The notes under the pieces are model-generated. The model was given only the letters and a program-made list of their open reading frames with translations. It was not told the DNA's origin and searched no databases. This document shows positions 422 to 39,801 of a stretch of DNA of 40,870 bases, one piece after another. Every line of letters starts with the position of its first letter. Position 1 is the stretch's first letter. The stretch spans positions 1 to 40,870 of the IMG/VR virus record IMGVR_UViG_2651869533_000044. The stretch is one strand, 5' to 3'. A program made the translations under genes and the position numbers. The stretch is from a virus.

Positions 422-492
422 TTGAGGGAGAAGGATTCGAACCTCCGCCGCCGGAGCCAAATTCCGGAGTTCTACCACTGAACTATCCCTCA
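422..492 (-). tRNA. tRNA-Gln (anticodon UUG)
   Basis: Minus-strand cloverleaf. Acceptor UGAGGGA/UCCCUCA, D arm GUUC-AGUGGUA-GAAC, anticodon arm CCGGA-AUUUGGC-UCCGG, 4-nt variable loop, T arm GGAGG-UUCGAAU-CCUUC, discriminator A, no encoded CCA. U1:A72 is typical of bacterial tRNA-Gln. Confidence 0.75.
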
Positions 493-493
493 T

Positions 494-1660
494 CTAATCC
501 TTATATGGGTCATAATTTCGCGCATCTGCCATTGCTACCCCAATAGGTTTCAATGTATGCAATATTTTCACTGTGTCTTTGTGCGCGTCCAGAACTTCTT
601 CAATGCGTTTATACGCTTGCGGAGCTTCGTCCACGTCAGCCCCTCTGAGTTCAACTCCGGCTCTTTCAACCCAAGATCGCATCGCGTCTTTGCTAATAAG
701 TCCATCTGTGAGCTGTCTTCCAGTTTTTCTGTCTCTCTTTCCCTTGGCCTGATTTCTTCCCATACAGCGTCCTGCGCCGTGTATGGTCGATCGTAAGGAT
801 TGGATGGATGACTCGTGCTCGCCTCCCTCGAGTATGACGCTGATATCTCCCATAGATCCTCCAACAAAGCTTTTTTGACCAGGAAAGGCAGGAGTAGATC
901 CTTTTCTGATAACCCAGAGATCTCTACCAAAATGGTGTTCTTTCCAAGCAAAGTTGTGGTGGTTGTGAATCTCTTCGACGATGTTTCCTCTAAGAATTTG
1001 CGCAACTCGTTGACATACCCAATCTCTCCCTGCATAAGCATATCGTCCAGCAAGCTCCATACATTTGAGGTATGTGATCCCAAGCTCAGAGCTTTCATCA
1101 AAAACCACCGGATCTGCATGTACTCCATCTACGCCTCCTCCTTCTCTGACAAAATGAGTAGCGATAGAGTGTCCAAGGCCGCGAGAACCAAAATGCACAC
1201 CCACCCATACTCTGTCCAACTCATCGACGAAAATGTCAACATAGTGATTGCCACCGCCGACAGTACCAAGTTGGTTATAAGCTTTGTCTTTAAGATCTTT
1301 GAGGAGGTCGAGTTCAGCCCATATGCCTTCGTCAAAAATTTCGTGATCCACTTTCTCATTGTTTTGCCTTCCAATTCCAAAGCTAATGTGCTTTTGGATT
1401 TCGTTCATATTCCGATATATTCCTTCACGCACTACAGAAGCATCGCAATCCAATCTAACAGCTTTATTCCCACATGCGATGTCATAGCCCACACCATTGA
1501 CACAAATAGCCTTATCAAGCCCAATAACACTACCAACGGGTAGACTATAGCCAAGGTGCCCATCAGCACACAAAGCGCCACATACCGCATTTGATTTCTC
1601 CATGGCAGATTTCATCTGAGACATTACTTCATCTTCAACAATTCCGAAGGTCTTGATCAT
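494..1660 (-). CDS. rtcB: RtcB RNA 3'-phosphate/5'-OH ligase
   Basis: 388 aa with the RtcB signature blocks GYDIACG, GGGNHYVDIF, HFGSRGLGH, IHNHHNF, IRKGSTPA, GGSMGD and HGAGR. Confidence 0.93.
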   Translation of the reverse strand: MIKTFGIVEDEVMSQMKSAMEKSNAVCGALCADGHLGYSLPVGSVIGLDKAICVNGVGYDIACGNKAVRLDCDASVVREGIYRNMNEIQKHISFGIGRQNNEKVDHEIFDEGIWAELDLLKDLKDKAYNQLGTVGGGNHYVDIFVDELDRVWVGVHFGSRGLGHSIATHFVREGGGVDGVHADPVVFDESSELGITYLKCMELAGRYAYAGRDWVCQRVAQILRGNIVEEIHNHHNFAWKEHHFGRDLWVIRKGSTPAFPGQKSFVGGSMGDISVILEGGEHESSIQSLRSTIHGAGRCMGRNQAKGKRDRKTGRQLTDGLISKDAMRSWVERAGVELRGADVDEAPQAYKRIEEVLDAHKDTVKILHTLKPIGVAMADARNYDPYKD

Positions 1661-2205
1661 ACTTTCACTACAGGGTTAGGAAGGATATTAAATTTTTCTT
1701 TATATTCTATGACCATCGCGATCAGAGAAGATTTTTTTTCTAAAAATCCTTCTACTATATTGCACTGACGACAAAGAATCGCTCTAAATTCCCCGGTTTC
1801 ATGACAGTGATCCACTTGTGGTTTTCTTTCTGTATCCGTCACATCAAATTCCAAACCACAACATGCACATCTATTTTTTTGCTGAAAAAGAACCTTTTCA
1901 TACATTTCAAGAGTAATGCCATATTTTTTCTTTAAAGTCTGATTTTTTGCTTTTTCAGGAAAATTTTTCCTCCAGTGTTTTCCATGATCTTTAGATCTTT
2001 TTTTGATCTTTTCGGCATTTTCAACATAATATTTTTTGTCATATCCATTTAACTTTCTCTTCTCAAGGGCCTTTCTAGAATATGCGTAGGTCTTATTCTT
2101 GTTTTCAGAGCACCATCCCTTGATATATGCTTTAATTTTTTCTTTATTCTTAGAGTAATAATCTTTTGAATTATTCACTCTATCTTCTTTGTTTTTGTAT
2201 GGCAT
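1657..2205 (-). CDS. endonuclease VII-domain (HNH-like) nuclease, possible free-standing homing endonuclease
   Basis: 182 aa. The C-terminus CACCG...QVDHCHETGEFRAILCRQCN matches the T4 endonuclease VII-type motif. The N-terminal half is Lys-rich with repeated YY-x-N-x-EKIK units. There is a 4-nt overlap with the rtcB start. Confidence 0.75.
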   Translation of the reverse strand: MPYKNKEDRVNNSKDYYSKNKEKIKAYIKGWCSENKNKTYAYSRKALEKRKLNGYDKKYYVENAEKIKKRSKDHGKHWRKNFPEKAKNQTLKKKYGITLEMYEKVLFQQKNRCACCGLEFDVTDTERKPQVDHCHETGEFRAILCRQCNIVEGFLEKKSSLIAMVIEYKEKFNILPNPVVKV

Positions 2206-2212
2206 AATAACA

Positions 2213-2512
2213 TTACACTACCACAATTGGACTTGGAAGACCATTTAAACGTGGTGCAAAATAAGGCCAATATTGGTTATAAGGAACAACATTATAGGGA
2301 GGCGCGCATACAGCAACCATCCCTAATCCTCCTGATCCACCAACAGCGCCCTGCTCAGCACTATCAGGTAAAGGCCAAGGGAATTGACGAGCACGAGGAG
2401 GAATGGGGGTGCAAACCATACCAAGTCCCGCAAAAGGGCTACCATTTCCGCCTGCGCTGGTAATCTGTGACGGTGGATTCGGGGGGTTGTTGCCTGCCAT
2501 ATCGTGCTCCAA
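2213..2512 (-). CDS. hypothetical Gly/Pro-rich protein (99 aa)
   Basis: ORF in operon orientation with GGAG 8 nt upstream of the ATG. Low-complexity composition, so the coding status is only moderately supported. Confidence 0.45.
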   Translation of the reverse strand: MEHDMAGNNPPNPPSQITSAGGNGSPFAGLGMVCTPIPPRARQFPWPLPDSAEQGAVGGSGGLGMVAVCAPPYNVVPYNQYWPYFAPRLNGLPSPIVVV

Positions 2513-2534
2513 TTGGTTTTATCGACATACTTTC

Positions 2535-2543
2535 ATTATAGCA
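2535..2543 (-). promoter_or_regulatory. extended -10 promoter element (TGCTATAAT) on the minus strand
   Basis: The minus strand reads ..GGATATGCTATAATGAAAG.. in the 87-bp gap upstream of ORF 2213-2512. No good -35 was seen. Confidence 0.35.
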
Positions 2544-2599
2544 TATCCATACAATCATTATTGTTAACAAAGTCCACAATATCATTATTGAAAGGTATC

Positions 2600-2848
2600 T
2601 CATTGCAAAGGATTGTCTTTTAGGAAAGATCCAAAATTAGCAACGTCTTCGAAACATTCAGAATCAATATGTTTGATAAGCCCACCCATTAAATAATTAC
2701 AGAACTGCCTATCTTTAGGCTCCATGATTGCGTAACAAGTCCAAAAACAAGAAAGGAATGCTATCATAGCTTCACTCTTATCTCTCTTGTATTCCTTCAC
2801 GAACTTGTCTGTAAAATGCGCAACATCGTCTATCATTTGATAGCTCAT
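2600..2848 (-). CDS. hypothetical protein (82 aa)
   Basis: ORF overlapping the terminase stop by 4 nt (translational coupling). No motif recognised. Confidence 0.55.
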   Translation of the reverse strand: MSYQMIDDVAHFTDKFVKEYKRDKSEAMIAFLSCFWTCYAIMEPKDRQFCNYLMGGLIKHIDSECFEDVANFGSFLKDNPLQ

Positions 2849-4365
2849 TCAAACCTCGGATGATACTTATTGTACATTCTTTCTGCTTCTGCATCAGATA
2901 TCCCACTACTAGCACTATCTATGTGGTCTTTTATCGCTATAGCTGCATATCTAAACGCATCGGCTCCATGGCTGTATTTATTGTGGACAGGTCTGTTTTT
3001 ATACATGTCATGAACCGGATCGTATTCTTTTTTGTAGTTCTCTAGGCACTTAATTAACTTGTCGCATTTCTCGGCATCGATCCATACTCTGGGGAATATC
3101 TCGCGAGCAACGTTGATTCCCTCATCTAGACTGATATTTAATGTCGCAAGCTTTATGAGCGGAACTCCGAGGCCAGCGGCCACGCTTTTGATTGATTCAC
3201 GAGTGGCCATGCTCCTGTTTTCGATATCATGAGGTCCAAAATATCTGTCATATAAATAAGGTTTTGATTTGATAAGTGAGAGATAATGGGCAAAGCCTTC
3301 TCCCGAATTTTCGTAATAGTCGATAACATGAATTTCCTGTCCTATATTCTGCCAAAAAACTATAGCGCATGAATCAAGCATACCTGGGTCAAAAGCTACG
3401 CATACACGAGCTTCTCTATCCCAAGGAACTCGAACATTAGTGCCAATTCTACCTTCAAAACGAGCTTCCCCAATCCACTTAGCATAGAAAGAACCATCTA
3501 CAGAGCTTTCAAACGCTTCCTCTGGCGTAGATGGGTATTCCCGTCTTTGGTCGTCTTTTTGTATCAATAATTTCCTATAATACCAAGACTTTTTTTGTAC
3601 AGAAAGGTTTATGCCCTTCATTCGCAGTGATTCAAAATATTCTTCTATCTCTTTTGGGATTATGGTAGGCTCTGTCTCTTCGTAATCTTTGCAATCATAC
3701 CAAGGAAAAAAATGAAACCTATAATCGAGAGGACTCAATTTTTTACCCATTGTCTTATCAGCTTGGGCTACCTGGCAGATATCGTAAAAAGCTCCTTCCT
3801 TTCCCTCCGCAGTACTTTCGATGAAGATGTATTGTTTATTTGCGACCGTGTTCAAGCTTCCAGTGATGATTTCACGAGCTTTATCAGGATAGTGAGAGCA
3901 GATCTTTCCAAATTCACTTATATGGAGATATTGCAACGTACTACCCCGCATCGAAGTACCTACGCGCAAGCTAGAATTATTATTGAAAACCATTTCCCTG
4001 GCGCTATCCGTGGTAGCCGTGCGAAGGGACTTGATGCAATCTGGCATCTTGTCATACGCGAACTTGATGCGCTTGAAAATATGTTCAGCGTCCTCTCTAG
4101 TGTGTGCTATTATTCCAGCTGCAACATTGGATCTAAAAAGGCAGATATCCAAAAAGTAGAGACAGACAAAAGTAGAGATTCCGAGCTGTCGGGCTTTAAG
4201 TATCACATTAGAGAACCATATATTTTCATATAATTGCTTTTGAGCATAATTTAACTTAAACAGAGTTGCCGACCCATCTTTATCCACGATAGTATATAGA
4301 TTTTGTAATCTCCACAAAGGGTCCGGAAGATATTTGTGTAAGTCGGCAAGCTGTTCAGGAGTCAT
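2845..4365 (-). CDS. terL: terminase large subunit
   Basis: 506 aa. N-terminal ATPase blocks (ILKARQLGISTF, LQYLHISEF) and C-terminal nuclease blocks (VCVAFDPGMLDSCAIVF, SHGADAFRY). The size is typical. Confidence 0.85.
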   Translation of the reverse strand: MTPEQLADLHKYLPDPLWRLQNLYTIVDKDGSATLFKLNYAQKQLYENIWFSNVILKARQLGISTFVCLYFLDICLFRSNVAAGIIAHTREDAEHIFKRIKFAYDKMPDCIKSLRTATTDSAREMVFNNNSSLRVGTSMRGSTLQYLHISEFGKICSHYPDKAREIITGSLNTVANKQYIFIESTAEGKEGAFYDICQVAQADKTMGKKLSPLDYRFHFFPWYDCKDYEETEPTIIPKEIEEYFESLRMKGINLSVQKKSWYYRKLLIQKDDQRREYPSTPEEAFESSVDGSFYAKWIGEARFEGRIGTNVRVPWDREARVCVAFDPGMLDSCAIVFWQNIGQEIHVIDYYENSGEGFAHYLSLIKSKPYLYDRYFGPHDIENRSMATRESIKSVAAGLGVPLIKLATLNISLDEGINVAREIFPRVWIDAEKCDKLIKCLENYKKEYDPVHDMYKNRPVHNKYSHGADAFRYAAIAIKDHIDSASSGISDAEAERMYNKYHPRFE

Positions 4366-4775
4366 TATTCTTCGTCTTCTTCACAACCGGCACAGTCAGA
4401 TTGGTTTTCCGACTGTTTTTTAATCCAAACCTCCACTTTCCCATCATTAATACATCGATAAAGAGAATATCCTAATTTTTCATATTCCAATCTATAATTC
4501 TCTAAATCTTGCAAAAAAAACGAATCAGTGGAAATCAATTTGTAATCCTCTCTTTTACAAACAACTTCAAAAATTTCATTTTTATTTTTAATATGAATAA
4601 TTTGTCTTTTAAGAATTTCTATATCTCTTTTTAATTCATCGATTGTTTCCATAAGACATTTAATTTGTTTTGATTTAAAACACTCATTCATTCTTTGCCA
4701 CCATGTTAATTGGTTTAATTTAAAGTTCATAATCCATTCATCATTTATAATCATATACTTGCCATATAAATTCAT
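4365..4775 (-). CDS. hypothetical coiled-coil protein (136 aa)
   Basis: ORF directly upstream of terL with a TAATG overlap. Central heptad-like stretch (ETIDELKRDIEILKRQIIHIK) and an acidic Cys-containing tail. Confidence 0.55.
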   Translation of the reverse strand: MNLYGKYMIINDEWIMNFKLNQLTWWQRMNECFKSKQIKCLMETIDELKRDIEILKRQIIHIKNKNEIFEVVCKREDYKLISTDSFFLQDLENYRLEYEKLGYSLYRCINDGKVEVWIKKQSENQSDCAGCEEDEE

Positions 4776-4835
4776 TTACAGCTCAGCTCGTTTATGATAT
4801 CTTGTAACAATATAAATACTTCTTCCATATTATCC

Positions 4836-5492
4836 TCAAATTTCCACTCTTATAGCACCGTTTACTGGATCATAATTCTCATCCATGCGGGATGCATTAA
4901 CAAATATTGTCTGCAAACCTAAAATATCCGTTTGTTTTCCGAAAGATTCGTGAATATGACCAAATACATGTAACTTTGGATTTATCTTGATAACCGTATC
5001 TTTAAGCGATTTGCTTCCTACTGAAGAATTAGCACTTCGTCTATTGCAAACCTTGTCTAGTATTCCAAAAGGAGGGGAGTGAGTTACTAAAATATCGATA
5101 TCTTTAGGAATTAAAGACCATTTTTCAGACAACTCTTCATCTGTATCAACGGTGAAAGCTTTACAATTTGAGTTCATACCCTTGAAAGTTTTAGTCCAAG
5201 GAGAGCCCCATATCTTTAGATGTTGAAATTCGGTTCCTGAGTCGCACAGATATTCAAAAGAACCAGAAACCTTGCCTATAGGTCCTTGGTAATTCTCTTT
5301 ATTGGCTTTGTTGTCGTGATTTCCGGCGATTACTATCTTTTTCTTATATTTTTGTTCATCAACCCACTCGAAGAAGTCAAAGCATTCAGAAAGAGTGTCT
5401 GATAAAGTCCAATCTCCAGCTACGATAAGAAGATCACCTGAAGGAAGTTTCGGATGATCTCCATGCATATCTGATATGCATGTGATTTTCAT
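4836..5492 (-). CDS. calcineurin-like metallophosphoesterase
   Basis: 218 aa with all five metallophosphatase blocks: ISDMHG, VAGDWT, GNHD, THSPP, GHIHE. Confidence 0.88.
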   Translation of the reverse strand: MKITCISDMHGDHPKLPSGDLLIVAGDWTLSDTLSECFDFFEWVDEQKYKKKIVIAGNHDNKANKENYQGPIGKVSGSFEYLCDSGTEFQHLKIWGSPWTKTFKGMNSNCKAFTVDTDEELSEKWSLIPKDIDILVTHSPPFGILDKVCNRRSANSSVGSKSLKDTVIKINPKLHVFGHIHESFGKQTDILGLQTIFVNASRMDENYDPVNGAIRVEI

Positions 5493-6460
5493 AATTCATA
5501 GTCCAGGTTGATGGATTTAAAGCTAATCATCTTGCCGTTGATGTGCTCCCAAGATCTGATAACCACACCTTCACGGATATGTCCATTGGCATAATTGCCG
5601 GTAGCGAGCGAACCAATGTCGGTTTCGTCGAAATTATCCCTTACTGTTAGAATCCGTACGGTTGGAAATCCAATCTTCTCACAAAAGTCTATGAAATCGT
5701 ACCCGTCCAGATAGCTCCTCTCTTCGATATTGTAGGCGCTGAACGCTAACCCATCTATCTCAGAAAACCCCATTGGATTCTTTTGAATCTTGGGACCACA
5801 AGTCTCCCACTGAAGGGCGTATCCTTCCGGGAGAATCTCTCTGAGATTATACTTGTTGGCAACCTTCCAATAGCCATTATCACCCTCTTCCAACTCTAGA
5901 TTTCTACTGCACACACCAAACTCGCCTTTCCACTTATAAGCCGTTGTAGAAGATCCGTCGGCCTTCTCTGTGACGTAGTATCGATGTGCCCATAAAGACG
6001 CTATATCTTCTTCACAGCGCTGCCAGTTAGGCTCGTCTGTCTTTGGTATAAATGAGGGGAAGTTTCCTTTGCATTTCCCCTCTAAAGAGGCGGGAACCGG
6101 CTTAACATATTTGATAACTCCCATAACTTCGGTGAGGTCATCTCCAATCTCATCATCTGATGCAACCCAAGGTGTGATTACGCACTCAGAAGGAGCGCCT
6201 TTGAAACGACGCATCTTAACGCGCCAATTAGAGCTTCTTAGAAATTGTACAAGAGAAGATTCGGGAACTATTGCGTCCTGAAGATAGACAAGGCAGGTGT
6301 GACCTACTTCGAAGTCTTCTTTCCGAACGACTCCGCGCCACTTACCGCCTTTTCCGCACACAACAGTAGCAGAAACAATGAAATCAGCTCCTGGAATAGC
6401 TTCCATTGAGATAATCTTACCGACGAAGACAAGATTTTTATTATTCTGTTGAGTGTCCAT
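5489..6460 (-). CDS. ATP-dependent RNA ligase, DraRnl (DRB0094)-like
   Basis: 323 aa. An N-terminal OB-like segment is followed by nucleotidyltransferase motif I TEKADGSS (KxDG), motif IV EGVVIR and motif V ISFKSIN. There is a 4-nt overlap with the phosphoesterase gene. Confidence 0.75.
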   Translation of the reverse strand: MDTQQNNKNLVFVGKIISMEAIPGADFIVSATVVCGKGGKWRGVVRKEDFEVGHTCLVYLQDAIVPESSLVQFLRSSNWRVKMRRFKGAPSECVITPWVASDDEIGDDLTEVMGVIKYVKPVPASLEGKCKGNFPSFIPKTDEPNWQRCEEDIASLWAHRYYVTEKADGSSTTAYKWKGEFGVCSRNLELEEGDNGYWKVANKYNLREILPEGYALQWETCGPKIQKNPMGFSEIDGLAFSAYNIEERSYLDGYDFIDFCEKIGFPTVRILTVRDNFDETDIGSLATGNYANGHIREGVVIRSWEHINGKMISFKSINLDYEL

Positions 6461-6932: not shown

Positions 6933-6968
6933 CTAATTACTTTAACACGTCTAAAATATTGTTTTGAC

Positions 6969-7078
6969 GTAAGGTTTTCTGTTAGGGTAATTTGGCAAAT
7001 TTTACTTGTCAGCGTAAGGTTTTCTGTTAGGGTATGTAAGGTTTTCTGTTAGGGTATGTAAGGTTTTCTGTTAGGGTC
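6969..7078 (+). repeat. four direct copies of the 21-bp iteron-like repeat GTAAGGTTTTCTGTTAGGGTA
   Basis: Copies start at 6969, 7014, 7036 and 7058. The last three are in exact 22-bp phase and the first lies 45 bp upstream. Confidence 0.9.
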
Positions 7079-7498
7079 TGCCCTATGAGATTTGACTCAT
7101 TAAGTTATTAAGATATTAATAACAGGGAGCCGTTTTGTACGGCCCCCCGTTATTTAAAAAAAGTAGATACATCAGCATTAAGATTTGGTAAATATATCAA
7201 TAAAATGCCGATTTCTGCTTGCAAGGTACCTAGAATTGATTTACACAGTCCCAGACGTGATTTGATATGTTTTTTGCATTATATTCGCTTAAATCGAAAA
7301 TTAGACGCGTTCTGAATCGTTTTTTTCGTGTCTGACACCCAGAAGATCGAAAACTTTACGGATTGCTCTTCTGGTAGAATTTTAAGTATTTCATATATAT
7401 AGGTCAGCTATCTGTCCAAATAGCATCTGTCAAGTTTTTGTCTTGTGTCAAGCCCTACCCCCTCCCCTATCCTTAAACCTGCCCCTCCCTCACCCCTA

Positions 7499-7558
7499 GT
7501 CTCGATTGTTACCCCTTCGGGGCTCGCGGAAGCGACAGGTCGCCTCCGTCTCGATTGT
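7499..7558 (+). other. GC-rich tetraloop-hairpin element flanked by 11-bp direct repeats (GTCTCGATTGT)
   Basis: GTCTCGATTGT occurs at 7499-7509 and 7548-7558. Between them lie CCCC-UUCG-GGGG, UCGC-GGAA-GCGA and GCGA-CAGG-UCGC hairpins. A C-tract region precedes it (7453-7495). Confidence 0.5.
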
Positions 7559-7656
7559 ACCAAAGGGTTTTTTTAAAGTATATTTATTTTTACAACCCTT
7601 TTCATTAGAAGCCTTCCGCTTTAGCTGAGGGAATATTCACCATACATCTAAATCAC

Positions 7657-7685
7657 TTGTAGTCTTTGGTGATCGCTGATAAAAT
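7657..7685 (+). promoter_or_regulatory. sigma70-like promoter (TTGTAG-17-TAAAAT) reading into the pentamer arrays and ORF 7904
   Basis: TTGTAG at 7657-7662, an exact 17-nt spacer, TAAAAT at 7680-7685. The first array starts about 20 nt downstream of the expected start site. Confidence 0.5.
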
Positions 7686-7709
7686 ACAACATTTTATTTT
7701 CTATTTCAA

Positions 7710-7880
7710 GGCTGGGCATGGCGAGGCCAGGCGAGTCAAGGCATGGCAAGGCTAGGCTGGGCATGGCCAGGCGAGGCTTTGCGTGGCGAGGCAAGGTTTA
7801 TTGGGGGCGAAAGCTCATATTTCAAGGCTGGGCGAGGCAGGGCAGGGCATGGCTAGTCGGGGCTAGGCATGGCGAGGTTT
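7710..7880 (+). repeat. (GGCNN)n pentamer arrays 1 and 2 (18 + 11 units) joined by a 26-nt GNRA-hairpin linker
   Basis: Array 1 is 7710-7799, the linker ATTGGGGGCGAAAGCTCATATTTCAA is 7800-7825, and array 2 is 7826-7880. Both arrays hold perfect 5-nt register within the block and end in GGTTT. Confidence 0.9.
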
Positions 7881-7903
7881 AACTTAACAAACAAGGAAAA
7901 AAA

Positions 7904-8491
7904 ATGACAAAAGTAAAAGCAAATATTGAAATCGAAGGATGCAAACCATTTCTATGGCATACTTTTCCATTGGACGCTCTTTCAACCACCAAGAAAAGAG
8001 AAGGAACGACGGGAGATAACAAATCAGAATGGAAAGACACCGTATTGATGGACAATGATCGACGCCTCTACATTTACAACAGCTATCTTTTGTCATCGAT
8101 TGCCGATGGAGGAAAAGAAATTAAGCAGGGTCGCGGCAACATCTCCAAAAAGGTATCATCAACTCTTGACATCGAAGAATATAGACTTTTTCTCACAGAT
8201 CTTACCGTACCATCTGAAGAAGACTTAACAAGAAATGACAGCGATCTCGTTTATTTAGACGTTCGAGCTGTTGTCAATCCAATGACAAAAGGCAGAAATT
8301 TGCGCTATCGTATCGCTGCCCGTCCAGGTTGGAAGCTTAAATTCGTAGTAGGCTGGGATGATCGCATTCTCTCTAAAGATCAGATCAAATCTTGTATAGA
8401 AAACGCCGGAGATTTACAAGGAATTGGAGACGGCAGAGGTTTAGGATTCGGAAGATTTAAACTTCTGAAATTTGAAATGATTAAGAATTAA
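7904..8491 (+). CDS. hypothetical protein (195 aa), possibly a RAMP-type (Cas7/Csm3- or Cas6-like) RNA-binding fold
   Basis: AGGAA lies 6 nt upstream of the ATG. It is one of only two ORFs of 60 aa or more in the 2.9-kb island. The C-terminal GIGDGRGLGFG fits the RAMP glycine-rich loop GhGxxxxxGhG. The fold assignment is from memory of RAMP patterns, not from an alignment. Confidence 0.55.
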   Translation: MTKVKANIEIEGCKPFLWHTFPLDALSTTKKREGTTGDNKSEWKDTVLMDNDRRLYIYNSYLLSSIADGGKEIKQGRGNISKKVSSTLDIEEYRLFLTDLTVPSEEDLTRNDSDLVYLDVRAVVNPMTKGRNLRYRIAARPGWKLKFVVGWDDRILSKDQIKSCIENAGDLQGIGDGRGLGFGRFKLLKFEMIKN

Positions 8492-8500
8492 TTTTTTCAA

Positions 8501-8742
8501 GGCTGGGCGAGGCTAGGCAAGGCAGGGTTTATTGGGGGCGCAAGCCCATATTTCATGGCTTGGAGTGGCAAGGCCAGGCATGGCAAGGCACGGCTAGGCA
8601 AGGCACGGCGTAGCCAGGCATGGCAAGGCAAGGCAGGGCAGGGCAAGGCAAGGTTTATTGAGGGCGTGAGCTCATTTTTCGGGGCAGGGAATGGATGGGC
8701 AAGGCGAGGCTGGGCTAGGCCAGGCTAGGCAAGGCAAGGTTT
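8501..8742 (+). repeat. (GGCNN)n pentamer arrays 3, 4 and 5 (6 + 20 + 12 units) joined by two 26-nt GNRA-hairpin linkers
   Basis: Arrays are 8501-8530, 8557-8656 and 8683-8742. Linkers are 8531-8556 (ATTGGGGGCGCAAGCCCATATTTCAT) and 8657-8682 (ATTGAGGGCGTGAGCTCATTTTTCGG). Confidence 0.9.
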
Positions 8743-9054
8743 TATTGAGGCAGGATGAGAGATGAATGAATGGATCAACGTTTGCGGAAAGCTGGCGTGG
8801 CAAGCTATGTTACCTAATATATGCATTCTTCCGTCATAACTGGCAGTAAAATATTTGTTTGAGTACTTAGGATTAGACAGTTAGATGGTATTAGAAAAAT
8901 ACTCAGCCTCTTCGGCTGCCACGGCGTTGAAGCTGAGCTGTATCAACTGATTGAAAAATCTAAAAGGTAACAATAAGGCCTGTCAAGCGACAACTCGGCA
9001 GGTCCATATACTCCTTAGGGTATATCAAAATAGAAAAAAATATAAAAAGCTATT

Positions 9055-9861: not shown

Positions 9862-10422
9862 TTACTTGATAAGATCTTGGGCAACGATGCCATAATCGAT
9901 TTTAGAGGGCTCTAATGAGGTCGGCTCTATGGAAGGTGGAGTTACGTCAATTGGCTCAGATTTTGATTGAGAAATCCTTTCAAGCAATGAGGCTAAAGGA
10001 TTTAGGTTATGGTTGACTGTTGATTCGTCTTTCCAACCTTCTCGAGCAACCAACATGAACTTAATAAAGTTTCCATCACCCTTCTTTGTGACTGCTAAAT
10101 CAACCAATCTCTGCTCTTGAATCTGTCTAGCCAAATTAAATGCGTCACGGAACCCTTCATGCCTTTTCTCGAATCTAGAGGCATGTTCTCGAAGCAAACC
10201 CCTTGAGTTTAAGAAGCTTGCGAGATAATAATTTCTTGGATTCTCGAGCCATTCGTATAAGGCTTCGATCTCTTCTTCTATCTTCTCATCTGTCCAAGTG
10301 AGTGGACGACCACCCTTATTGACTATCTTAAATGGCTGAGGCTGATCTGATTTTGCATTTTGGATAGCCAAGGAAGCCTTTGTTGAATGGTGTAGTTCAG
10401 TACGTTGTGATCTTACCGCCAT
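9862..10422 (-). CDS. putative terminase small subunit / DNA-binding protein (P22 gp3-like pattern)
   Basis: 186 aa. GGRPLTWTDEKIEEEIEALYEWLENP followed by a helical region ending in KFMLVAREGWKDES resembles small terminases of the gp3 type. It lies next to the repeat-bounded island. Confidence 0.4.
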   Translation of the reverse strand: MAVRSQRTELHHSTKASLAIQNAKSDQPQPFKIVNKGGRPLTWTDEKIEEEIEALYEWLENPRNYYLASFLNSRGLLREHASRFEKRHEGFRDAFNLARQIQEQRLVDLAVTKKGDGNFIKFMLVAREGWKDESTVNHNLNPLASLLERISQSKSEPIDVTPPSIEPTSLEPSKIDYGIVAQDLIK

Positions 10423-36599: not shown

Positions 36600-36965
36600 C
36601 TAGGCCAGTAAGATTCCCATCTGCTGACCGACCTCTGAGATGGTTTCGAAGGTGTCTTGCTTAGCTTTGGAAAGCAGAGACGGGTCTATCGGTACATCTG
36701 GAGGTATTGATAATTCCGGCATGAATTTAAATATTCCTTTGGCGTGATCCACGTACCACACCAGAAGACCAATGATCTTCGGGGGTCTTTGCCTATAGAA
36801 CTTAAATGTCTGCCTAAAAACTTCTGGTTGAGCTTTGTCTTGCTTTGCAGCGTAGACCACGTAAAAAGGCTCCCTATCGCTTTTTAAGGAAGATGCATAT
36901 TCTTCGGCTTTGCGCCACACATCCATTCCCCATGCGTCTCGTGATTCACCAATTTCTTGAGCCAT
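36600..36965 (-). CDS. hypothetical protein (121 aa)
   Basis: ORF in the head-module operon. No motif recognised. Confidence 0.5.
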   Translation of the reverse strand: MAQEIGESRDAWGMDVWRKAEEYASSLKSDREPFYVVYAAKQDKAQPEVFRQTFKFYRQRPPKIIGLLVWYVDHAKGIFKFMPELSIPPDVPIDPSLLSKAKQDTFETISEVGQQMGILLA

Positions 36966-36971
36966 AATTAC

Positions 36972-37187
36972 TTAATGCTCCGCTGGGCCTTCCCAGTCAT
37001 AATGTTTCATCTGTCCATTAATCTTTTTAGAATCGGACTTGCATCCACCCATTCCGGCTTGACCGTAGGCGATGTCCATAGCTTGACCTTTGAACTCAGA
37101 AACGCCCATACCATGTTCTGGGTGGCCTTTCTTAGAGACTTTAGGTTTGTCCATCTCATGCTCGTAATGAGCCATTTCGTTTTTCAT
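36972..37187 (-). CDS. hypothetical His/Gly/Met-rich protein (71 aa)
   Basis: ORF contiguous with its neighbours on the minus strand. Confidence 0.4.
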   Translation of the reverse strand: MKNEMAHYEHEMDKPKVSKKGHPEHGMGVSEFKGQAMDIAYGQAGMGGCKSDSKKINGQMKHYDWEGPAEH

Positions 37188-37409
37188 CTATTTGCCTTTG
37201 TGCATTTTCTTTTCATACTGTTTGTTTGATTCGAGGGAGCGCTGGTTAAAGTTTCCCGTATCTGCTGGAGGACCTTCAGATGAGTATCCGTAAGGCATTT
37301 CAGATTCTTGTACTCTTGAATCGAGTTCTCTTGAGTAAGAGTCTGCTGGTACCGGATGTCGATAGTCGTTGTCGGATTTATTCAACATATCGTGAAATTT
37401 CTCTCTCAC
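37188..37409 (-). CDS. hypothetical protein (73 aa)
   Basis: ORF abutting the next gene, with a 4-nt overlap with the upstream ORF. Confidence 0.4.
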   Translation of the reverse strand: MREKFHDMLNKSDNDYRHPVPADSYSRELDSRVQESEMPYGYSSEGPPADTGNFNQRSLESNKQYEKKMHKGK

Positions 37410-37606
37410 TTAGAACCTCGTTTCTTCTTCATCTTTTCATATTTCTCGATGATAGGATCCCGCACGTCGCGGTCGATCTTTACCAACTTCTCGTTCTTCT
37501 TCTCGGCTTTCTTAAGGACTTTTACGGCTTCTTTATCTGCGCCTTTCTTTACGTCACGCTCAGCTGTTTGCATTCTCTTAGTAACTTGGTGCATCTTTTT
37601 GTCCAA
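37406..37606 (-). CDS. hypothetical Lys-rich protein (66 aa; the ATG at 37594 is the more likely start)
   Basis: The ORF-track start is a TTG, with an in-frame ATG four codons later. The sequence is a highly basic helix. Confidence 0.4.
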   Translation of the reverse strand: MDKKMHQVTKRMQTAERDVKKGADKEAVKVLKKAEKKNEKLVKIDRDVRDPIIEKYEKMKKKRGSK

Positions 37607-37740
37607 AAGGGACCCCTTTCTTGTGTAAATTTTCTAATTCAAAGTGTACACATAAAAATAAATTCTTTGCATATAATAAAATTCTTGCATGTTGAGATGT
37701 AACAAAAAGTCAGGAAAAGGAAATCAGGAGTGAATCCTTA

Positions 37741-39801
37741 CTAAGGAGCTACAGGAGCCGAAGCGTTAGCTTTTGCTTGTTCCTTTCCCTCTAGTTCATG
37801 AATAAACGCCAATTTAGCACGCAAGTTCTCGATATCTATAGATTCAAGCTCTTTGACAGCCTTCAATAGATTCAGAACACTAGCCGTCTTGTCTTCCTCC
37901 GCCCTAGCAATACGCTCAGCGCTCAATGCTGCATCTAACTGGATCTTGTTGATACGTTCTGCTGCGAGGGCTCTATCGGACTCGGATTTTGAGTCTACAC
38001 CGCGAGTGATTGTCTCTTGGTTCTGCATTTGAAGCTCGGCTTGTTTCTGAGCCTGTTCTTGGGCTGCTTTCATCTCACCTGCCATTCTTTCACCTATCAC
38101 ACGCTTATCGTGCAAGGAAGAGGCGCTAATGATCTCTGAGTCGGTTATATTCACTCCCATTGCCTTCAGAGCTAAGCGACCAGCAAAGTCTGTCTGACGC
38201 TGAGTGTCTGTTAGCAGACCTTCTTCAACAACTACGCTGTACTTTGTGAAGGATTTTGAGAAGAATTCCGGAGTAGGATCTTTCTTTGTGATAGCCTTGA
38301 TTTTCTCTGGAGTATAGTTCAGTTGCATTAATTTTAGAGTTTTCTCGCCCAGTAGTCTCTGAGACTCTCTCAAACCATCGAAAATATCTTGCAAATTGAT
38401 GAGACCTGCTGACTGTCTCATCTTTCCTAGAATTCCAGTAATTTCGACCTTTTCATTGTCAGCCATTCCAAATAGTTCAGAGTTAACCCCTGCAATTTCC
38501 ATCATATCTTTTTCAAACTCGCCTTCTAACTGGAACATAGAGGCGGGGATATCTGCGGCTTGTAGACGTTGAATATCCGTCATTTGAGCTTCTGGCTTTA
38601 ACCAGATGACCTGACCTTGTCCTGTTTTATAGAGAGAAGACGGGTTTGAGACGCTATTGGTTTTAGCGATAAACCCGCTGTTGAGCTGATTGTCCAAGAT
38701 ATCGACCATCTTAGAGCGTCTTTTATTTATCTCTGTTTGAGGATCTCTAACTATTCTAACTAACGATTGAATCTTCCATGTATATAGATCATAAGAAGGC
38801 TCAAAAATGCAAAAAAATGGAACAAAAGGATAATCATTTAGTCCAAATGGGTCCTTACCATAATAAATTAGTTGTCCTTCTACAATTATACCTAGATCGA
38901 CACTTCGAACAGGCTTTCTGATAACCTCTAATTGAGGGTATAACTCTCTAAACAGCTTTAATCTCTTTCTATCTCCATTCCACTCTCTAGTTTCTCCAGT
39001 CTCCATATCGACCAGAACATCTTTGGTTTCCCAACGCGTCTTCCAGTATTCTGTATAGTTAAGAAGTTTCTGCATTCCCCACTGCCTAGCGTAAGGCATA
39101 TAGGTGAATTTGTCATCGCGGCTACCCCAAGGCAATCGAGAGATAACATCCTCTTTATCGGGATGAAGGGAGATCACTTCTGTTCTGGATAGGAACTTGC
39201 GTCGGGAGATGAAAGAGCAATCTGAGAGATCTTTCTTGGTGAGAAATGGGTCCATAATCACCGCATTCCAAGAATCGTGGTGGAACCGGATATCTCCTGA
39301 GATTGGGTCAGATCTATAATCAACCCAAGGACTTACGAACGAAAGACCTGTTGTAAGCGCTCCTTTAAAACCTTCAGAGATGGTTTCGTATCCTCCACAA
39401 GACTGCATTATGTATTGCATCACATCTGATTGAATCTCCGCAGTGAGTTCAGATGAGTCTTCAATAGGGCTGATAACTGTGGCCAGTCGGTTCTTGCGCT
39501 GATATCCCTGTACCAGATTAATGAGCCGTCGTATTTTATTGTATGTGAAGGAGGATCTTCTTTGATTGTTGAGGTAGGAGAGTTCTTCCAAACTCCATTG
39601 ATTACCGAGATAGTATGATAAATCCTTGTAAGCTTCTGCATAATACGTATTCCATAACTGATAAGCTCTTTCGTAGTTCTGACCGAATTCTTGTATTACA
39701 TCTTGGTGTTGCGCCAACCTCTCATCGGAGGATATTTTTTTTCTATAATCATCTAGGAAGTCTTTTGAATCGGAGGAGTAGTTTGACATGGGGTTGGACA
39801 T
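37741..39801 (-). CDS. portal protein
   Basis: 686 aa. It has the YYLGNQWSLEE block near the N-terminus, a long C-terminal charged coiled region, and lies upstream of scaffold and capsid. Confidence 0.72.
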   Translation of the reverse strand: MSNPMSNYSSDSKDFLDDYRKKISSDERLAQHQDVIQEFGQNYERAYQLWNTYYAEAYKDLSYYLGNQWSLEELSYLNNQRRSSFTYNKIRRLINLVQGYQRKNRLATVISPIEDSSELTAEIQSDVMQYIMQSCGGYETISEGFKGALTTGLSFVSPWVDYRSDPISGDIRFHHDSWNAVIMDPFLTKKDLSDCSFISRRKFLSRTEVISLHPDKEDVISRLPWGSRDDKFTYMPYARQWGMQKLLNYTEYWKTRWETKDVLVDMETGETREWNGDRKRLKLFRELYPQLEVIRKPVRSVDLGIIVEGQLIYYGKDPFGLNDYPFVPFFCIFEPSYDLYTWKIQSLVRIVRDPQTEINKRRSKMVDILDNQLNSGFIAKTNSVSNPSSLYKTGQGQVIWLKPEAQMTDIQRLQAADIPASMFQLEGEFEKDMMEIAGVNSELFGMADNEKVEITGILGKMRQSAGLINLQDIFDGLRESQRLLGEKTLKLMQLNYTPEKIKAITKKDPTPEFFSKSFTKYSVVVEEGLLTDTQRQTDFAGRLALKAMGVNITDSEIISASSLHDKRVIGERMAGEMKAAQEQAQKQAELQMQNQETITRGVDSKSESDRALAAERINKIQLDAALSAERIARAEEDKTASVLNLLKAVKELESIDIENLRAKLAFIHELEGKEQAKANASAPVAP

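What the first reader, a model, noticed from the sequence alone, without database searches (positions are those of the whole stretch)
7657..8742. Five in-register (GGCNN)n pentamer arrays joined by covarying GNRA-hairpin linkers flank a solitary RAMP-like ORF: candidate novel repeat-RNA/protein system
There are 67 pentamers of the form GGCNN, with rare GTCAA, TGCGT, GGAGT and AGCCA variants, in five blocks: 7710-7799 (18 units), 7826-7880 (11), 8501-8530 (6), 8557-8656 (20) and 8683-8742 (12). Each block keeps perfect 5-nt register, is preceded by TTTCAA, TTTCAT or TTTCGG, and ends with GGTTT. Three 26-nt linkers (7800-7825, 8531-8556, 8657-8682) share ATTG(G/A)GGGCG..AGC(T/C)CAT(A/T)TTTC. Each forms a 4-bp stem capped by GAAA, GCAA or GUGA. 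The loop sequence drifts but stays GNRA, and a T/C change keeps G.U or G-C pairing. This argues for selection on a plus-strand RNA, because the complement would give ordinary loops. A TTGTAG-17-TAAAAT promoter (7657-7685) reads into block 1, and the blocks bracket ORF 7904-8491. I know of no described element with this architecture. It is not a CRISPR array, since the 'spacers' are low-complexity. It is not a known type III antitoxin repeat either, since those use 34-36-nt units on one side of the toxin. I see three hypotheses. (i) The RNA is a scaffold or sponge whose triplet-plus-2-nt geometry recalls the TRAP binding site, and it may polymerise the adjacent protein. (ii) The RNA is a precursor cut at the hairpins by the RAMP-like protein. 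(iii) The G-rich non-template strand promotes R-loops or two-tetrad quadruplexes that prime replication in a polymerase-less phage.
Basis: partly seen in the sequence, partly recalled or inferred. Interest (0 to 1): 0.9.

Follow-up and report, generated by a model that had tools for sequence, protein, structure and literature searches.

The report
Phage VIPR guide-RNA system

Summary

It is not an undescribed element. The ORF is a homologue of the Vipr protein of Escherichia phage SUSP1:
- pairwise BLASTP gives E=8e-13 at 26% identity;
- the family profile matches PDB 36pp "SUSP1 Vipr protein" at E=9e-11;
- both proteins fall in PHROG 4652;
- the predicted fold is Cas7/Csm3-like.

The arrays match the published vrRNA format: tandem GGY/NN repeats followed by a conserved 3' tail, flanking vipr on its own strand. 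In 30 of 37 viral loci that encode homologues, period-5 GG arrays detected by a strict scan lie on the gene's strand. The generic period-5 detector or direct reading found GTY/GTT-type arrays in six of the other seven.

By homology, Vipr should polymerise at one protomer per pentamer, hide the GGY bases, and present the NN dinucleotides to read double-stranded DNA while skipping one base in three, silencing competing mobile elements.

Local peculiarities are the absence of a vap accessory gene, a short GNRA-hairpin tail instead of a pseudoknot, and guides of up to 19 dinucleotides. I found no significant natural target. Verdict: a new member of a known kind.

The parts
7657..7685 (+). Promoter-like TTGTAG-17-TAAAAT upstream of the first vrRNA (weak, unverified)
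   Evidence: Read from the sequence. Not listed by the promoter scan. Similar TTGnnn-17/18-TAnnnT motifs lie just upstream of the locus in L003, L004, L008 and L010.
7710..7799 (+). vrRNA 1 repeat tract: 18 pentamers, giving 17 NN guide dinucleotides plus the terminal GGTTT
7800..7825 (+). Tail/linker 1: ATTGG + hairpin GGGC-GAAA-GCTC (7805-7816) + ATATTTCAA
7826..7880 (+). vrRNA 2 repeat tract: 11 pentamers (10 NN). It ends 23 nt before the vipr ATG, so it lies in the vipr 5' leader, and it has no hairpin after it.
   Evidence: The same placement is seen in L001, L009, L011, L022, L025 and L039.
7893..7897 (+). Shine-Dalgarno-like AAGGA for vipr
   Evidence: Read from the sequence.
7904..8491 (+). 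vipr gene: a 195-aa single-RRM RAMP (Cas7-like) with the G-loop GIGDGRGLGFGRF
   Evidence: homology to SUSP1 Vipr and PHROG 4652. (AlphaFold2 model at mean pLDDT 88, Csm3-like fold).
8501..8530 (+). vrRNA 3 repeat tract: 6 pentamers (5 NN), probably too short to specify a target and possibly vestigial
8531..8556 (+). Tail/linker 2 with hairpin GGGC-GCAA-GCCC (8536-8547)
8557..8656 (+). vrRNA 4 repeat tract: 20 pentamers (19 NN)
8657..8682 (+). Tail/linker 3 with hairpin GGGC-GUGA-GCUC (8662-8673)
8683..8742 (+). vrRNA 5 repeat tract: 12 pentamers (11 NN; units 2-3 are degenerate GGA)
8743..8751 (+). Remnant of the conserved tail (TATTGAGGC) after the last vrRNA, with no hairpin

Best explanation
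The locus is a VIPR (Viral Interference Programmable Repeat) system carried by an uncultivated phage of about 40 kb.

The 195-aa ORF is a Vipr protein, a minimal Cas7-like RAMP. The five pentamer blocks encode vrRNAs, two upstream and three downstream of vipr, all on the vipr strand.

The mechanism below is taken from the characterised SUSP1 and P. fulva homologues and is not shown for this locus:
- The region is transcribed on the plus strand.
- Vipr protomers polymerise along each vrRNA, one per pentamer.
- Each GGY is flipped into protein pockets, and the two variable bases of every unit are left exposed.
- The string of NN dinucleotides pairs with one strand of a double-stranded DNA target in which every third base is skipped.
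- The resulting stable complex blocks transcription of a competing phage, prophage or satellite.

The conserved GGUUU(U)AUUG element, and the 4-bp GNRA hairpin that follows it inside arrays, most likely play the role of the vrRNA 3' tail or cap and of punctuation between neighbouring vrRNAs. That last point is my inference.
For: Protein:
- Pairwise BLASTP against the SUSP1 protein YP_009199429.1 gives E=8e-13, 26% identity over the whole length, and both proteins are 195 aa.
- The family profile hits PDB 36pp 'SUSP1 Vipr protein' at E=9.1e-11.
- Both proteins hit PHROG 4652 over their full length: the window ORF at 3.4e-12 and the SUSP1 protein at 1.4e-96.
- The AlphaFold2 model (mean pLDDT 88) matches Csm3/Cas7 subunits at Foldseek E~1e-8, probability 1.00, TM about 0.5.
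- The residues that hold GGY in SUSP1 (H17, R138, D177, R179; 10.64898/2026.04.26.720927) align with window H19, R136, D176 and R178. R136 and R178 are invariant in the 29-sequence alignment.

RNA:
- 60 of 67 units are GGY, and the NN positions take 11 different dinucleotides.
- The layout matches SUSP1, which has one vrRNA upstream and three downstream on the gene strand.

Co-occurrence:
- 30 of 37 IMG/VR loci encoding homologues (34-56% identity) carry period-5 GG arrays on the gene's strand, next to the gene. Only four loci also have a run away from it: L017/L035 beside a second vipr copy, L027 and L031 on the minus strand.
- Of the other seven loci, six have GTY/GTT-type arrays found by the generic detector or by reading. 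In L033, a near-duplicate of L032, none was detected or inspected.

Guide-like turnover:
- An 84%-identical Vipr (L039) is flanked by completely different NN strings while GGY is kept.
- L023 and L026, about 85% identical in flanking DNA, share one guide and have swapped another.

Other:
- No self-target under the 1-nt-skip rule, as reported for published systems.
- The linker hairpin is supported by covariation across four arrays: 98.7% of cells paired, 15 cells changed on both sides, 0 of 500 shuffles as high, and a collapse when the partner is slid.
Against: - No expression data exist for this locus, and the promoter is a weak consensus match.
- No vap accessory gene is present. There is no homologue of SUSP1 vap1 or of the HNH partner anywhere in the window.
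- SUSP1 W178, which stacks on G2, is a glycine here.
- The tail is a short hairpin rather than the SUSP1 pseudoknot, and it is missing after vrRNAs 2 and 5.
- Guides of 17 and 19 dinucleotides exceed the published range of 9-16, and vrRNA 3 has only 5.
- The NN positions are C-poor (7 of 134 bases) and contain internal repeats.
- Seed-and-extend scans of the viral, metagenome and genome collections gave no significant target. The best was 29/34 for vrRNA 1 in a 300-aa ORF that I guess to be a capsid gene, with the skipped base at codon position 1, and that is about what chance would yield in a collection of this size.
Confidence: 0.9

Rival explanations
1. Protein-binding RNA without guide function. 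The pentamer tracts would only be high-affinity assembly sites (a TRAP-like sponge or scaffold, or an autoregulatory leader) for the adjacent protein, and the NN bases would carry no target information.
For: - No significant DNA target was found for any of the four usable guides.
- NN composition is biased and internally repetitive.
- vrRNA 2 sits in the vipr 5' leader, 23 nt from the ATG, and the same is true in several relatives. That placement would suit translational feedback.
Against: - Homologues with the same repeat format were shown to bind and silence DNA specified by the NN bases (10.64898/2026.04.26.720920).
- NN strings turn over completely between close relatives while GGY is kept. 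That is expected for guides and not for simple binding sites.
- My target search needed exact seeds and could easily have missed true targets.
Confidence: 0.05
2. CRISPR-like precursor in which the RAMP protein is a Cas6-type endoribonuclease. It would cut at the GNRA hairpins, and the released units would act through some pathway other than Vipr filaments.
For: - The C-terminal loop fits the GhGxxxxxGhG pattern that, from my own knowledge and not a test here, is typical of Cas5/Cas6.
- The hairpins are conserved by covariation and sit exactly between units.
Against: - The best structural matches are backbone Cas7/Csm3 subunits.
- The first and last vrRNAs of each array have no hairpin, and single-vrRNA relatives (L001, L039) have none at all, so the hairpin is not required for a functional unit.
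- No cas1, cas2 or other cas genes are present.
- In one relative a tRNA abuts the array, which suggests that host RNases do the trimming.
Confidence: 0.04
3. A DNA-level element. The G-rich strand would form quadruplexes or R-loops that prime replication, or the repeats would be packaging or partition sites.
For: - The locus lies between the terminase large-subunit region and a small-terminase-like gene.
- Every pentamer carries a GG.
Against: - The arrays always share the strand of the protein gene and travel with it across unrelated genome contexts.
- G.U pairs in the linker stem argue for a single-stranded plus-strand molecule.
- The homologous system acts as an RNP.
Confidence: 0.01

Closest known systems
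VIPR system of Escherichia phage SUSP1 (type II VIPR; Vipr YP_009199429.1, PDB 36pp; bioRxiv 10.64898/2026.04.26.720920 and 10.64898/2026.04.26.720927)
   Same: - Homologous 195-aa Vipr protein.
- Pentamer GGY/NN tracts on the gene strand, both upstream and downstream of vipr.
- A conserved element 3' of each tract.
- Phage-encoded.
- No self-targets.
- GGY-contacting His, Arg, Asp and Arg conserved.
   Different: - Only 26% identity.
- GGC rather than GGT units.
- No vap1 gene.
- The tail is GGUUUAUUG plus a 4-bp GNRA hairpin instead of a pseudoknot, and 26-nt linkers replace the longer inter-vrRNA segments.
- Up to 19 guide dinucleotides against the published 9-16.
- The Trp that stacks on G2 is replaced by Gly.
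- Targets are unknown.
Class 1 CRISPR-Cas backbone (Cas7/Csm3 on crRNA)
   Same: - RAMP fold with G-loop and thumb.
- The protein oligomerises along a guide RNA and periodically flips bases.
- Arrays of guide units separated by a small hairpin.
   Different: - 5-nt rather than 6-nt period.
- The guide is discontinuous (2 of every 5 bases).
- No cas1/cas2 adaptation genes, no large subunit or nuclease, and no true repeat-spacer array.
vipr-HNH loci (L013-L037), probably the nuclease-bearing VIPR types
   Same: Homologous Vipr (34-46% identity) and pentamer arrays on the same strand.
   Different: - An HNH gene directly downstream of vipr in 24 loci.
- Some of these loci use GTYNN units and different linkers.
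- The window has no HNH partner.
TRAP-trp leader RNA (11 G/UAG triplets with 2-3 nt spacers)
   Same: A protein oligomer reads a triplet-plus-spacer RNA with a period of about 5 nt.
   Different: The protein fold is unrelated. TRAP RNA is a regulatory leader and its spacers carry no guide information.

Membership tests
VIPR system | Vipr protein: a small (~20 kDa) single-RRM RAMP with G-loop and thumb, homologous to characterised Vipr | tested here: met
   - BLASTP against SUSP1 Vipr: E=8e-13.
- Profile against PDB 36pp_D: E=9.1e-11.
- Shared PHROG 4652.
- Cas7/Csm3-like fold, Foldseek E~1e-8.
VIPR system | Residues that sequester GGY (SUSP1 H17, D177 for G1; R138, W178 for G2; R179 for Y3) | tested here: met
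   H19, D176, R136 and R178 align with the SUSP1 residues. The W178 position is Gly177. So four of five are conserved.
VIPR system | vrRNA: tandem YNNGG (GGY/NN) pentamers with conserved GGY and hypervariable NN, next to vipr on its strand | tested here: met
   - 60 of 67 units are GGY, with 11 kinds of NN.
- Arrays lie next to homologues in 30 of 37 loci by the GG scan, and in six more by the generic detector or by reading.
- NN strings are replaced between close relatives.
- Tract lengths of 5-19 NN fall partly outside the published 9-16.
VIPR system | Invariant, structured 3' tail after the repeat tract | tested here: inconclusive
   GGUUU(U)AU follows the tracts throughout the clade. A covarying 4-bp GNRA hairpin follows three of the five tracts but is absent after the last tract of each array. 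There is no pseudoknot.
VIPR system | vap accessory gene in the operon (typical, not universal) | tested here: not met
   No gene lies between vipr and its arrays. There is no homologue of SUSP1 vap1 or of the HNH partner in the window. The discovery paper also reports stand-alone vipr genes.
VIPR system | NN string matches DNA of competing mobile elements with one skipped base, and there is no self-target | tested here: inconclusive
   - No self-target: the best 1-nt-skip matches in the window are 22/34, 14/20, 23/38 and 16/22.
- No significant external target. The best is 29/34, which is chance level for the collection.
- The search tools needed exact seeds.
VIPR system | vrRNAs are expressed, co-purify with Vipr, and form a filament with one protomer per repeat | not testable with these tools
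   Needs small-RNA sequencing, pull-down and electron microscopy.
CRISPR-Cas | Identical repeats separating unique contiguous spacers, plus cas1/cas2 or other cas genes | tested here: not met
   The 26-nt linkers separate pentamer tracts, not unique spacers. The ten neighbouring ORFs I scanned gave no cas family, and Rfam and tandem-repeat scans show no CRISPR repeat.
Type III toxin-antitoxin (ToxIN-like) | Tandem ~36-nt antitoxin RNA repeats upstream of an endoribonuclease toxin | tested here: not met
   The repeat unit is 5 nt and lies on both sides of the gene. The protein is a RAMP homologue with no significant Pfam match; the only hit, AHJR-like at E=0.17, is below the cut-off.

The most novel reading that the evidence does not exclude
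This vap-less clade may use its own way of making and controlling vrRNAs. The covarying GNRA hairpins would be the processing or capping signals that punctuate arrays, in the place of the pseudoknot tails or hammerhead ribozymes of published types. The vrRNA embedded in the vipr 5' leader, 20-27 nt from the start codon in the window and several relatives, would let Vipr filaments throttle vipr translation. Guides of 17-19 dinucleotides would extend the known working length of the code.
Probability: 0.2. Interest if true: 0.5.

Novelty: new member of a known kind. Interest (0 to 1): 0.35.

Why it matters
VIPR is a very recently described form of RNA-guided DNA recognition, proposed to be ancestral to CRISPR.

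This locus adds a divergent natural example from an uncultivated phage. It is only 26% identical to the studied protein, has no accessory gene, carries a minimal hairpin tail and has unusually long guides.

The 37 related loci show how variable the format is. They include GGC, GGT, GGA and GTY units, a tRNA-abutted array, and HNH-linked operons.

That helps in defining the minimal requirements of the system and in annotating such loci. The Donkeykong array overlaps an annotated 'hypothetical protein' CDS (gp48).

It does not open a new category.

Tried and rejected
Tried without result:
- Pfam, NCBIfam and PADLOC give nothing significant for the ORF.
- Rfam finds nothing in the locus and no hammerhead in 31 related loci.
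- tblastn of the ORF against GenBank phages finds nothing.

Target hunting under the 1-nt-skip rule:
- No self-target.
- No cross-targeting among about 70 guides and about 300 kb of related loci, with skips of 0-3 giving indistinguishable results.
- Exact-seed scans were as follows.

| Guide and seed | Collection | Hits |
|---|---|---|
| vrRNA 2, full | viral | 0 |
| vrRNA 1, 5' seed | viral | 0 |
| vrRNA 4 seed | GTDB genomes | 3 chance hits |
| vrRNA 1 seed | metagenomes | 9 chance hits |
| vrRNA 1, 3' seed | viral | 4 |
| vrRNA 4, 3' seed | viral | 0 |
| vrRNA 5 seed | viral | 28 |
| vrRNA 2 seed | viral | 26 |
| vrRNA 4, middle seed | viral | 6 |

- Only vrRNA 1 against L053/L054 extends beyond the seed (29/34). 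The skipped base falls on codon position 1, no other guide converges on that contig, and a 29/34 match is roughly what chance predicts for the collection. I do not count it as a target.

Considered and not run:
- A degenerate-peptide search of the protein database for wobble-skipped targets. I dropped it as too costly and too insensitive.

Rejected readings:
- Neutral microsatellite, CRISPR array, ToxIN-type antitoxin, G-quadruplex or R-loop origin.
Full report

Yes. The first three bases are GGC in 55 units, GGT in 5, GGA in 3, GTC in 2, TGC in 1 and AGC in 1.

Each block is preceded by TTTCAA, TTTCAT or TTTCGG and ends in GGTTT. The three 26-nt linkers have the stated sequences. Each folds as a 4-bp stem with a GAAA, GCAA or GUGA loop.

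An in-phase GG scan finds these five blocks on the plus strand and nothing on the minus strand or elsewhere in the 40.9-kb window. The longest perfect GGY run is 9-10 units. No shuffle of the window or of the local composition exceeds 5.

The proposed promoter TTGTAG-17-TAAAAT is present at 7657-7685. By my count only 3 of 6 bases match in the -35 hexamer, and the promoter scan does not list it. The scan finds no more promoter-like sites in this region than in shuffles.

**2. What is the ORF?**

Pfam gives nothing significant for ORF 7904-8491. PHROGs places it full-length in phrog_4652, a family of unknown function (E=3.4e-12).

The large protein collection holds 110 homologues, many on contigs of about 40 kb. 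The profile search of 1.84 billion representatives finds 1,663 clusters at E<=0.001.

A profile of 29 members (A1) hits one solved structure, PDB 36pp chain D, 'SUSP1 Vipr protein', at E=9.1e-11 over the whole length.

I recovered the SUSP1 gene from GenBank (NC_028808.2, YP_009199429.1). Pairwise BLASTP against the window ORF gives E=8e-13 at 26% identity, and both proteins are 195 aa. The SUSP1 protein is itself a strong member of phrog_4652 (1.4e-96).

The AlphaFold2 model (mean pLDDT 88.2, pTM 0.82) matches Csm3/Cas7 backbone subunits of type III and type VII CRISPR complexes. Foldseek E is about 1e-8, probability 1.00 and TM about 0.5.

**3. What is known about this family?**

A full-text search found two 2026 bioRxiv preprints.

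- They consist of a ~20 kDa ancestral RAMP (Vipr) and vrRNAs.
- A vrRNA is made of 9-16 YNNGG repeats (conserved GGY alternating with hypervariable NN) followed by an invariant structured 3' tail.
- vrRNAs are encoded in the intergenic regions on both sides of vipr, mostly in phages and prophages.
- They co-purify with Vipr.
- The NN dinucleotides specify a double-stranded DNA target in which one base in three is skipped, usually the codon wobble base. There is no PAM, and either strand can be targeted.
- Binding represses transcription.
- Natural targets are satellites, prophages and other VIPR loci.
- Seven types are described, with six kinds of accessory (vap) gene. Alternative repeat consensuses (NNNGG, YNNNG, NNNNG) and other array architectures (staggered, hammerhead-interspersed, single vrRNA) are also described.

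The second preprint (10.64898/2026.04.26.720927) gives cryo-EM structures.
- One protomer binds per repeat, in a right-handed filament.
- G1 is held by H17 and D177. G2 is held by R138 and W178. Y3 sits in a pocket that includes R179.
- The R-loop appears to form from the 3' tail towards the 5' end.

**4. Does the window meet the definition?**

The protein criterion is met (section 2). In the alignments, the GGY-binding residues correspond to window H19, D176, R136 and R178. R136 and R178 are invariant in A1. The tryptophan equivalent is Gly177.

The RNA criterion is met. Ninety per cent of units are GGY, and the NN positions take 11 different values. The overall layout mirrors SUSP1, where (GGTNN)n tracts lie once upstream and three times downstream of vipr on its strand.

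The association holds across the family.
- Among 37 IMG/VR loci encoding homologues of 34-56% identity, 30 carry in-phase GG arrays on the gene's strand, next to the gene. Only four loci also have a run away from it: L017/L035 beside a second vipr copy, L027 and L031 on the minus strand.
- Of the remaining seven, six have arrays of the related GTYNN or GTTNN form, found by the generic period-5 detector or by reading the sequence. In L033, a near-duplicate of L032, none was detected or inspected.

The NN strings behave like guides.
- A relative with 84% protein identity (L039) has entirely different NN strings and unit numbers, with GGY intact.
- L023 and L026 are 83-89% identical in their flanks. 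They share one tract almost unchanged and have exchanged another.

No tract has a self-target in the window under the one-base-skip rule. The best matches are 22/34, 14/20, 23/38 and 16/22, no better than for skips of 0 or 2.

**5. Where does this locus differ from the characterised systems?**

(a) There is no accessory gene.
- vipr is flanked directly by its arrays. The next ORFs are on the other strand, and neither SUSP1 vap1 nor the HNH partner has a homologue in the window.
- In my loci the family splits in two. The clade containing the window (L001-L012, L022) has a stand-alone vipr among portal and terminase genes. In a more distant clade (L013-L037), an HNH gene follows vipr in 24 loci.
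- The paper's text assigns vap genes to types II-VII. By elimination the stand-alone clade may be type I, but I could not see the figures, so this is only an inference.

(b) The tail differs.
- Throughout the clade every tract ends in GGUUU(U)AU.
- Inside arrays this is followed by a 4-bp hairpin with a GNRA-type loop.
- In an alignment of 19 linkers from four loci, the stem is paired in 98.7% of cells. Two of the four pairs change on both sides (GC, UA, CG and UG at one position), giving 15 double-change cells. No shuffle out of 500 reaches that, and pairing falls to 54% or less when the partner is slid.
- Fourteen G.U cells mark the plus strand as the folded strand.
- By folding energy alone the hairpins are unremarkable (z about 0).
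- The last tract of each array, and the tracts of single-vrRNA relatives, have no hairpin. It is therefore not needed by every vrRNA. I read it as a 3' cap or as punctuation between units.

(c) Tract lengths are 17, 10, 5, 19 and 11 dinucleotides. The two longest exceed the published range, and the shortest is unlikely to be specific.

(d) vrRNA 2 ends 23 nt before the vipr ATG. Upstream vrRNAs sit 20-27 nt from the start codon in several relatives too. This places a Vipr assembly site in the vipr leader.

**6. Natural targets**

I converted each tract into an NNxNNx pattern and searched both strands.
- Locally there is nothing, and skips of 0-3 are indistinguishable.
- The public collections could only be scanned for exact patterns, so I used seeds of 8-10 dinucleotides and scored the extension.
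- Only one hit extends. vrRNA 1 matches 29 of 34 positions in two related viral contigs (L053, L054), inside a 300-aa ORF that I guess from size and position to be a capsid gene, in a phage unrelated to the window.
- The extension probability is about 2e-3 to 6e-3 before correcting for multiple tests. The skipped base falls on codon position 1 rather than the wobble position, and no other guide converges on that contig. By my estimate a 29/34 match is roughly what a collection of this size yields by chance.

I therefore report no established target.

**7. Genome context**

The window is a phage genome. It encodes:
- a terminase large subunit (2845-4365);
- a small-terminase-like gene (9862-10422);
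- RtcB, an RNA ligase, a phosphoesterase and a tRNA-Gln;
- a DUF29 protein and a DNA invertase.

An identical 4.4-kb stretch occurs on a Logan contig from run SRR6214538. The terminase is at most 45% identical to any GenBank phage. The phage is therefore uncultivated and its host is unknown.

**8. Verdict**

It misses the point that the variable dinucleotides are the guide, and it is out of date on novelty.

The locus is a new, divergent member of the VIPR kind. Homology, architecture, co-occurrence, covariation and guide turnover are shown here. Filament formation, one-base-skip DNA recognition and silencing of competitors are inferred from the characterised homologues. Expression, processing and targets of this particular locus remain untested.

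Noticed in passing
window 6968-7078: Four copies of a 22-bp direct repeat, (C/T)GTAAGGTTTTCTGTTAGGGTA, lie between the leftward operon and the VIPR locus. Three are in tandem. They look like iterons or operator sites.
   Followed up: no
window 7445-7560: A C-rich tract is followed by two 11-nt direct repeats (GTCTCGATTGT). These flank three small plus-strand hairpins with UUCG, GGAA and AG loops. The complement of the C-rich tract (…GGGGCAGGTTTAAGG…) resembles a degenerate vrRNA 3' end on the minus strand.
   Followed up: no
L010 4916-5063 (near-duplicate locus L012 has arrays at equivalent offsets; its tRNA was not checked): A pentamer array ends 4 nt before a tRNA gene, so host tRNA-processing enzymes could set the vrRNA 3' end. 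This locus uses GGANN units, with a purine at position 3, unlike the GGY rule.
   Followed up: partly
L013-L037 (e.g. L028 4659-5269, L034 2831-3129, L036 4638-5007): In this more distant clade an HNH endonuclease gene follows vipr in 24 loci. In L028, L034 and L036 the arrays use GTYNN units with non-hairpin linkers ending in GTAC or ATAC. L028 and L036 have a covarying hairpin upstream of vipr.
   Followed up: partly
L023 3975-4722 versus L026 4613-5196: These two loci are 83-89% identical in their flanks. One guide is kept almost unchanged, while the guide next to vipr is replaced entirely (20 versus 17 dinucleotides). This is cassette-like guide turnover.
   Followed up: partly
L117 (Mycobacterium phage Donkeykong NC_051648.1, record 36870-37969): A long (GGCNN)n array lies under an annotated 'hypothetical protein' gp48 (record 36870-37256). 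The blastn match at record 37045-37138 falls inside it, and the CDS is probably a mis-annotation. The array sits directly upstream of gp49 (record 37223-37969), which aligns weakly with the Vipr profile (hhalign E=1.2e-4, probability 55%) and has a GVGDWRP…YGRYEV G-loop. Cheoctovirus mycobacteriophages therefore probably carry VIPR loci too.
   Followed up: partly
window 422-6460: The phage carries what looks like a tRNA-repair set: RtcB ligase (494-1660), a metallophosphoesterase (4836-5492), an RNA ligase (5489-6460) and a tRNA-Gln(UUG) gene (422-492). I infer, without testing it, that this counters host anticodon nucleases.
   Followed up: no
window 7826-7903, also L001, L009, L011, L022, L025, L039: The upstream vrRNA ends 20-27 nt before the vipr start codon, just ahead of the ribosome-binding site. 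The guide RNA is therefore part of the vipr leader, and Vipr assembly there could feed back on translation. This is an idea only.
   Followed up: no
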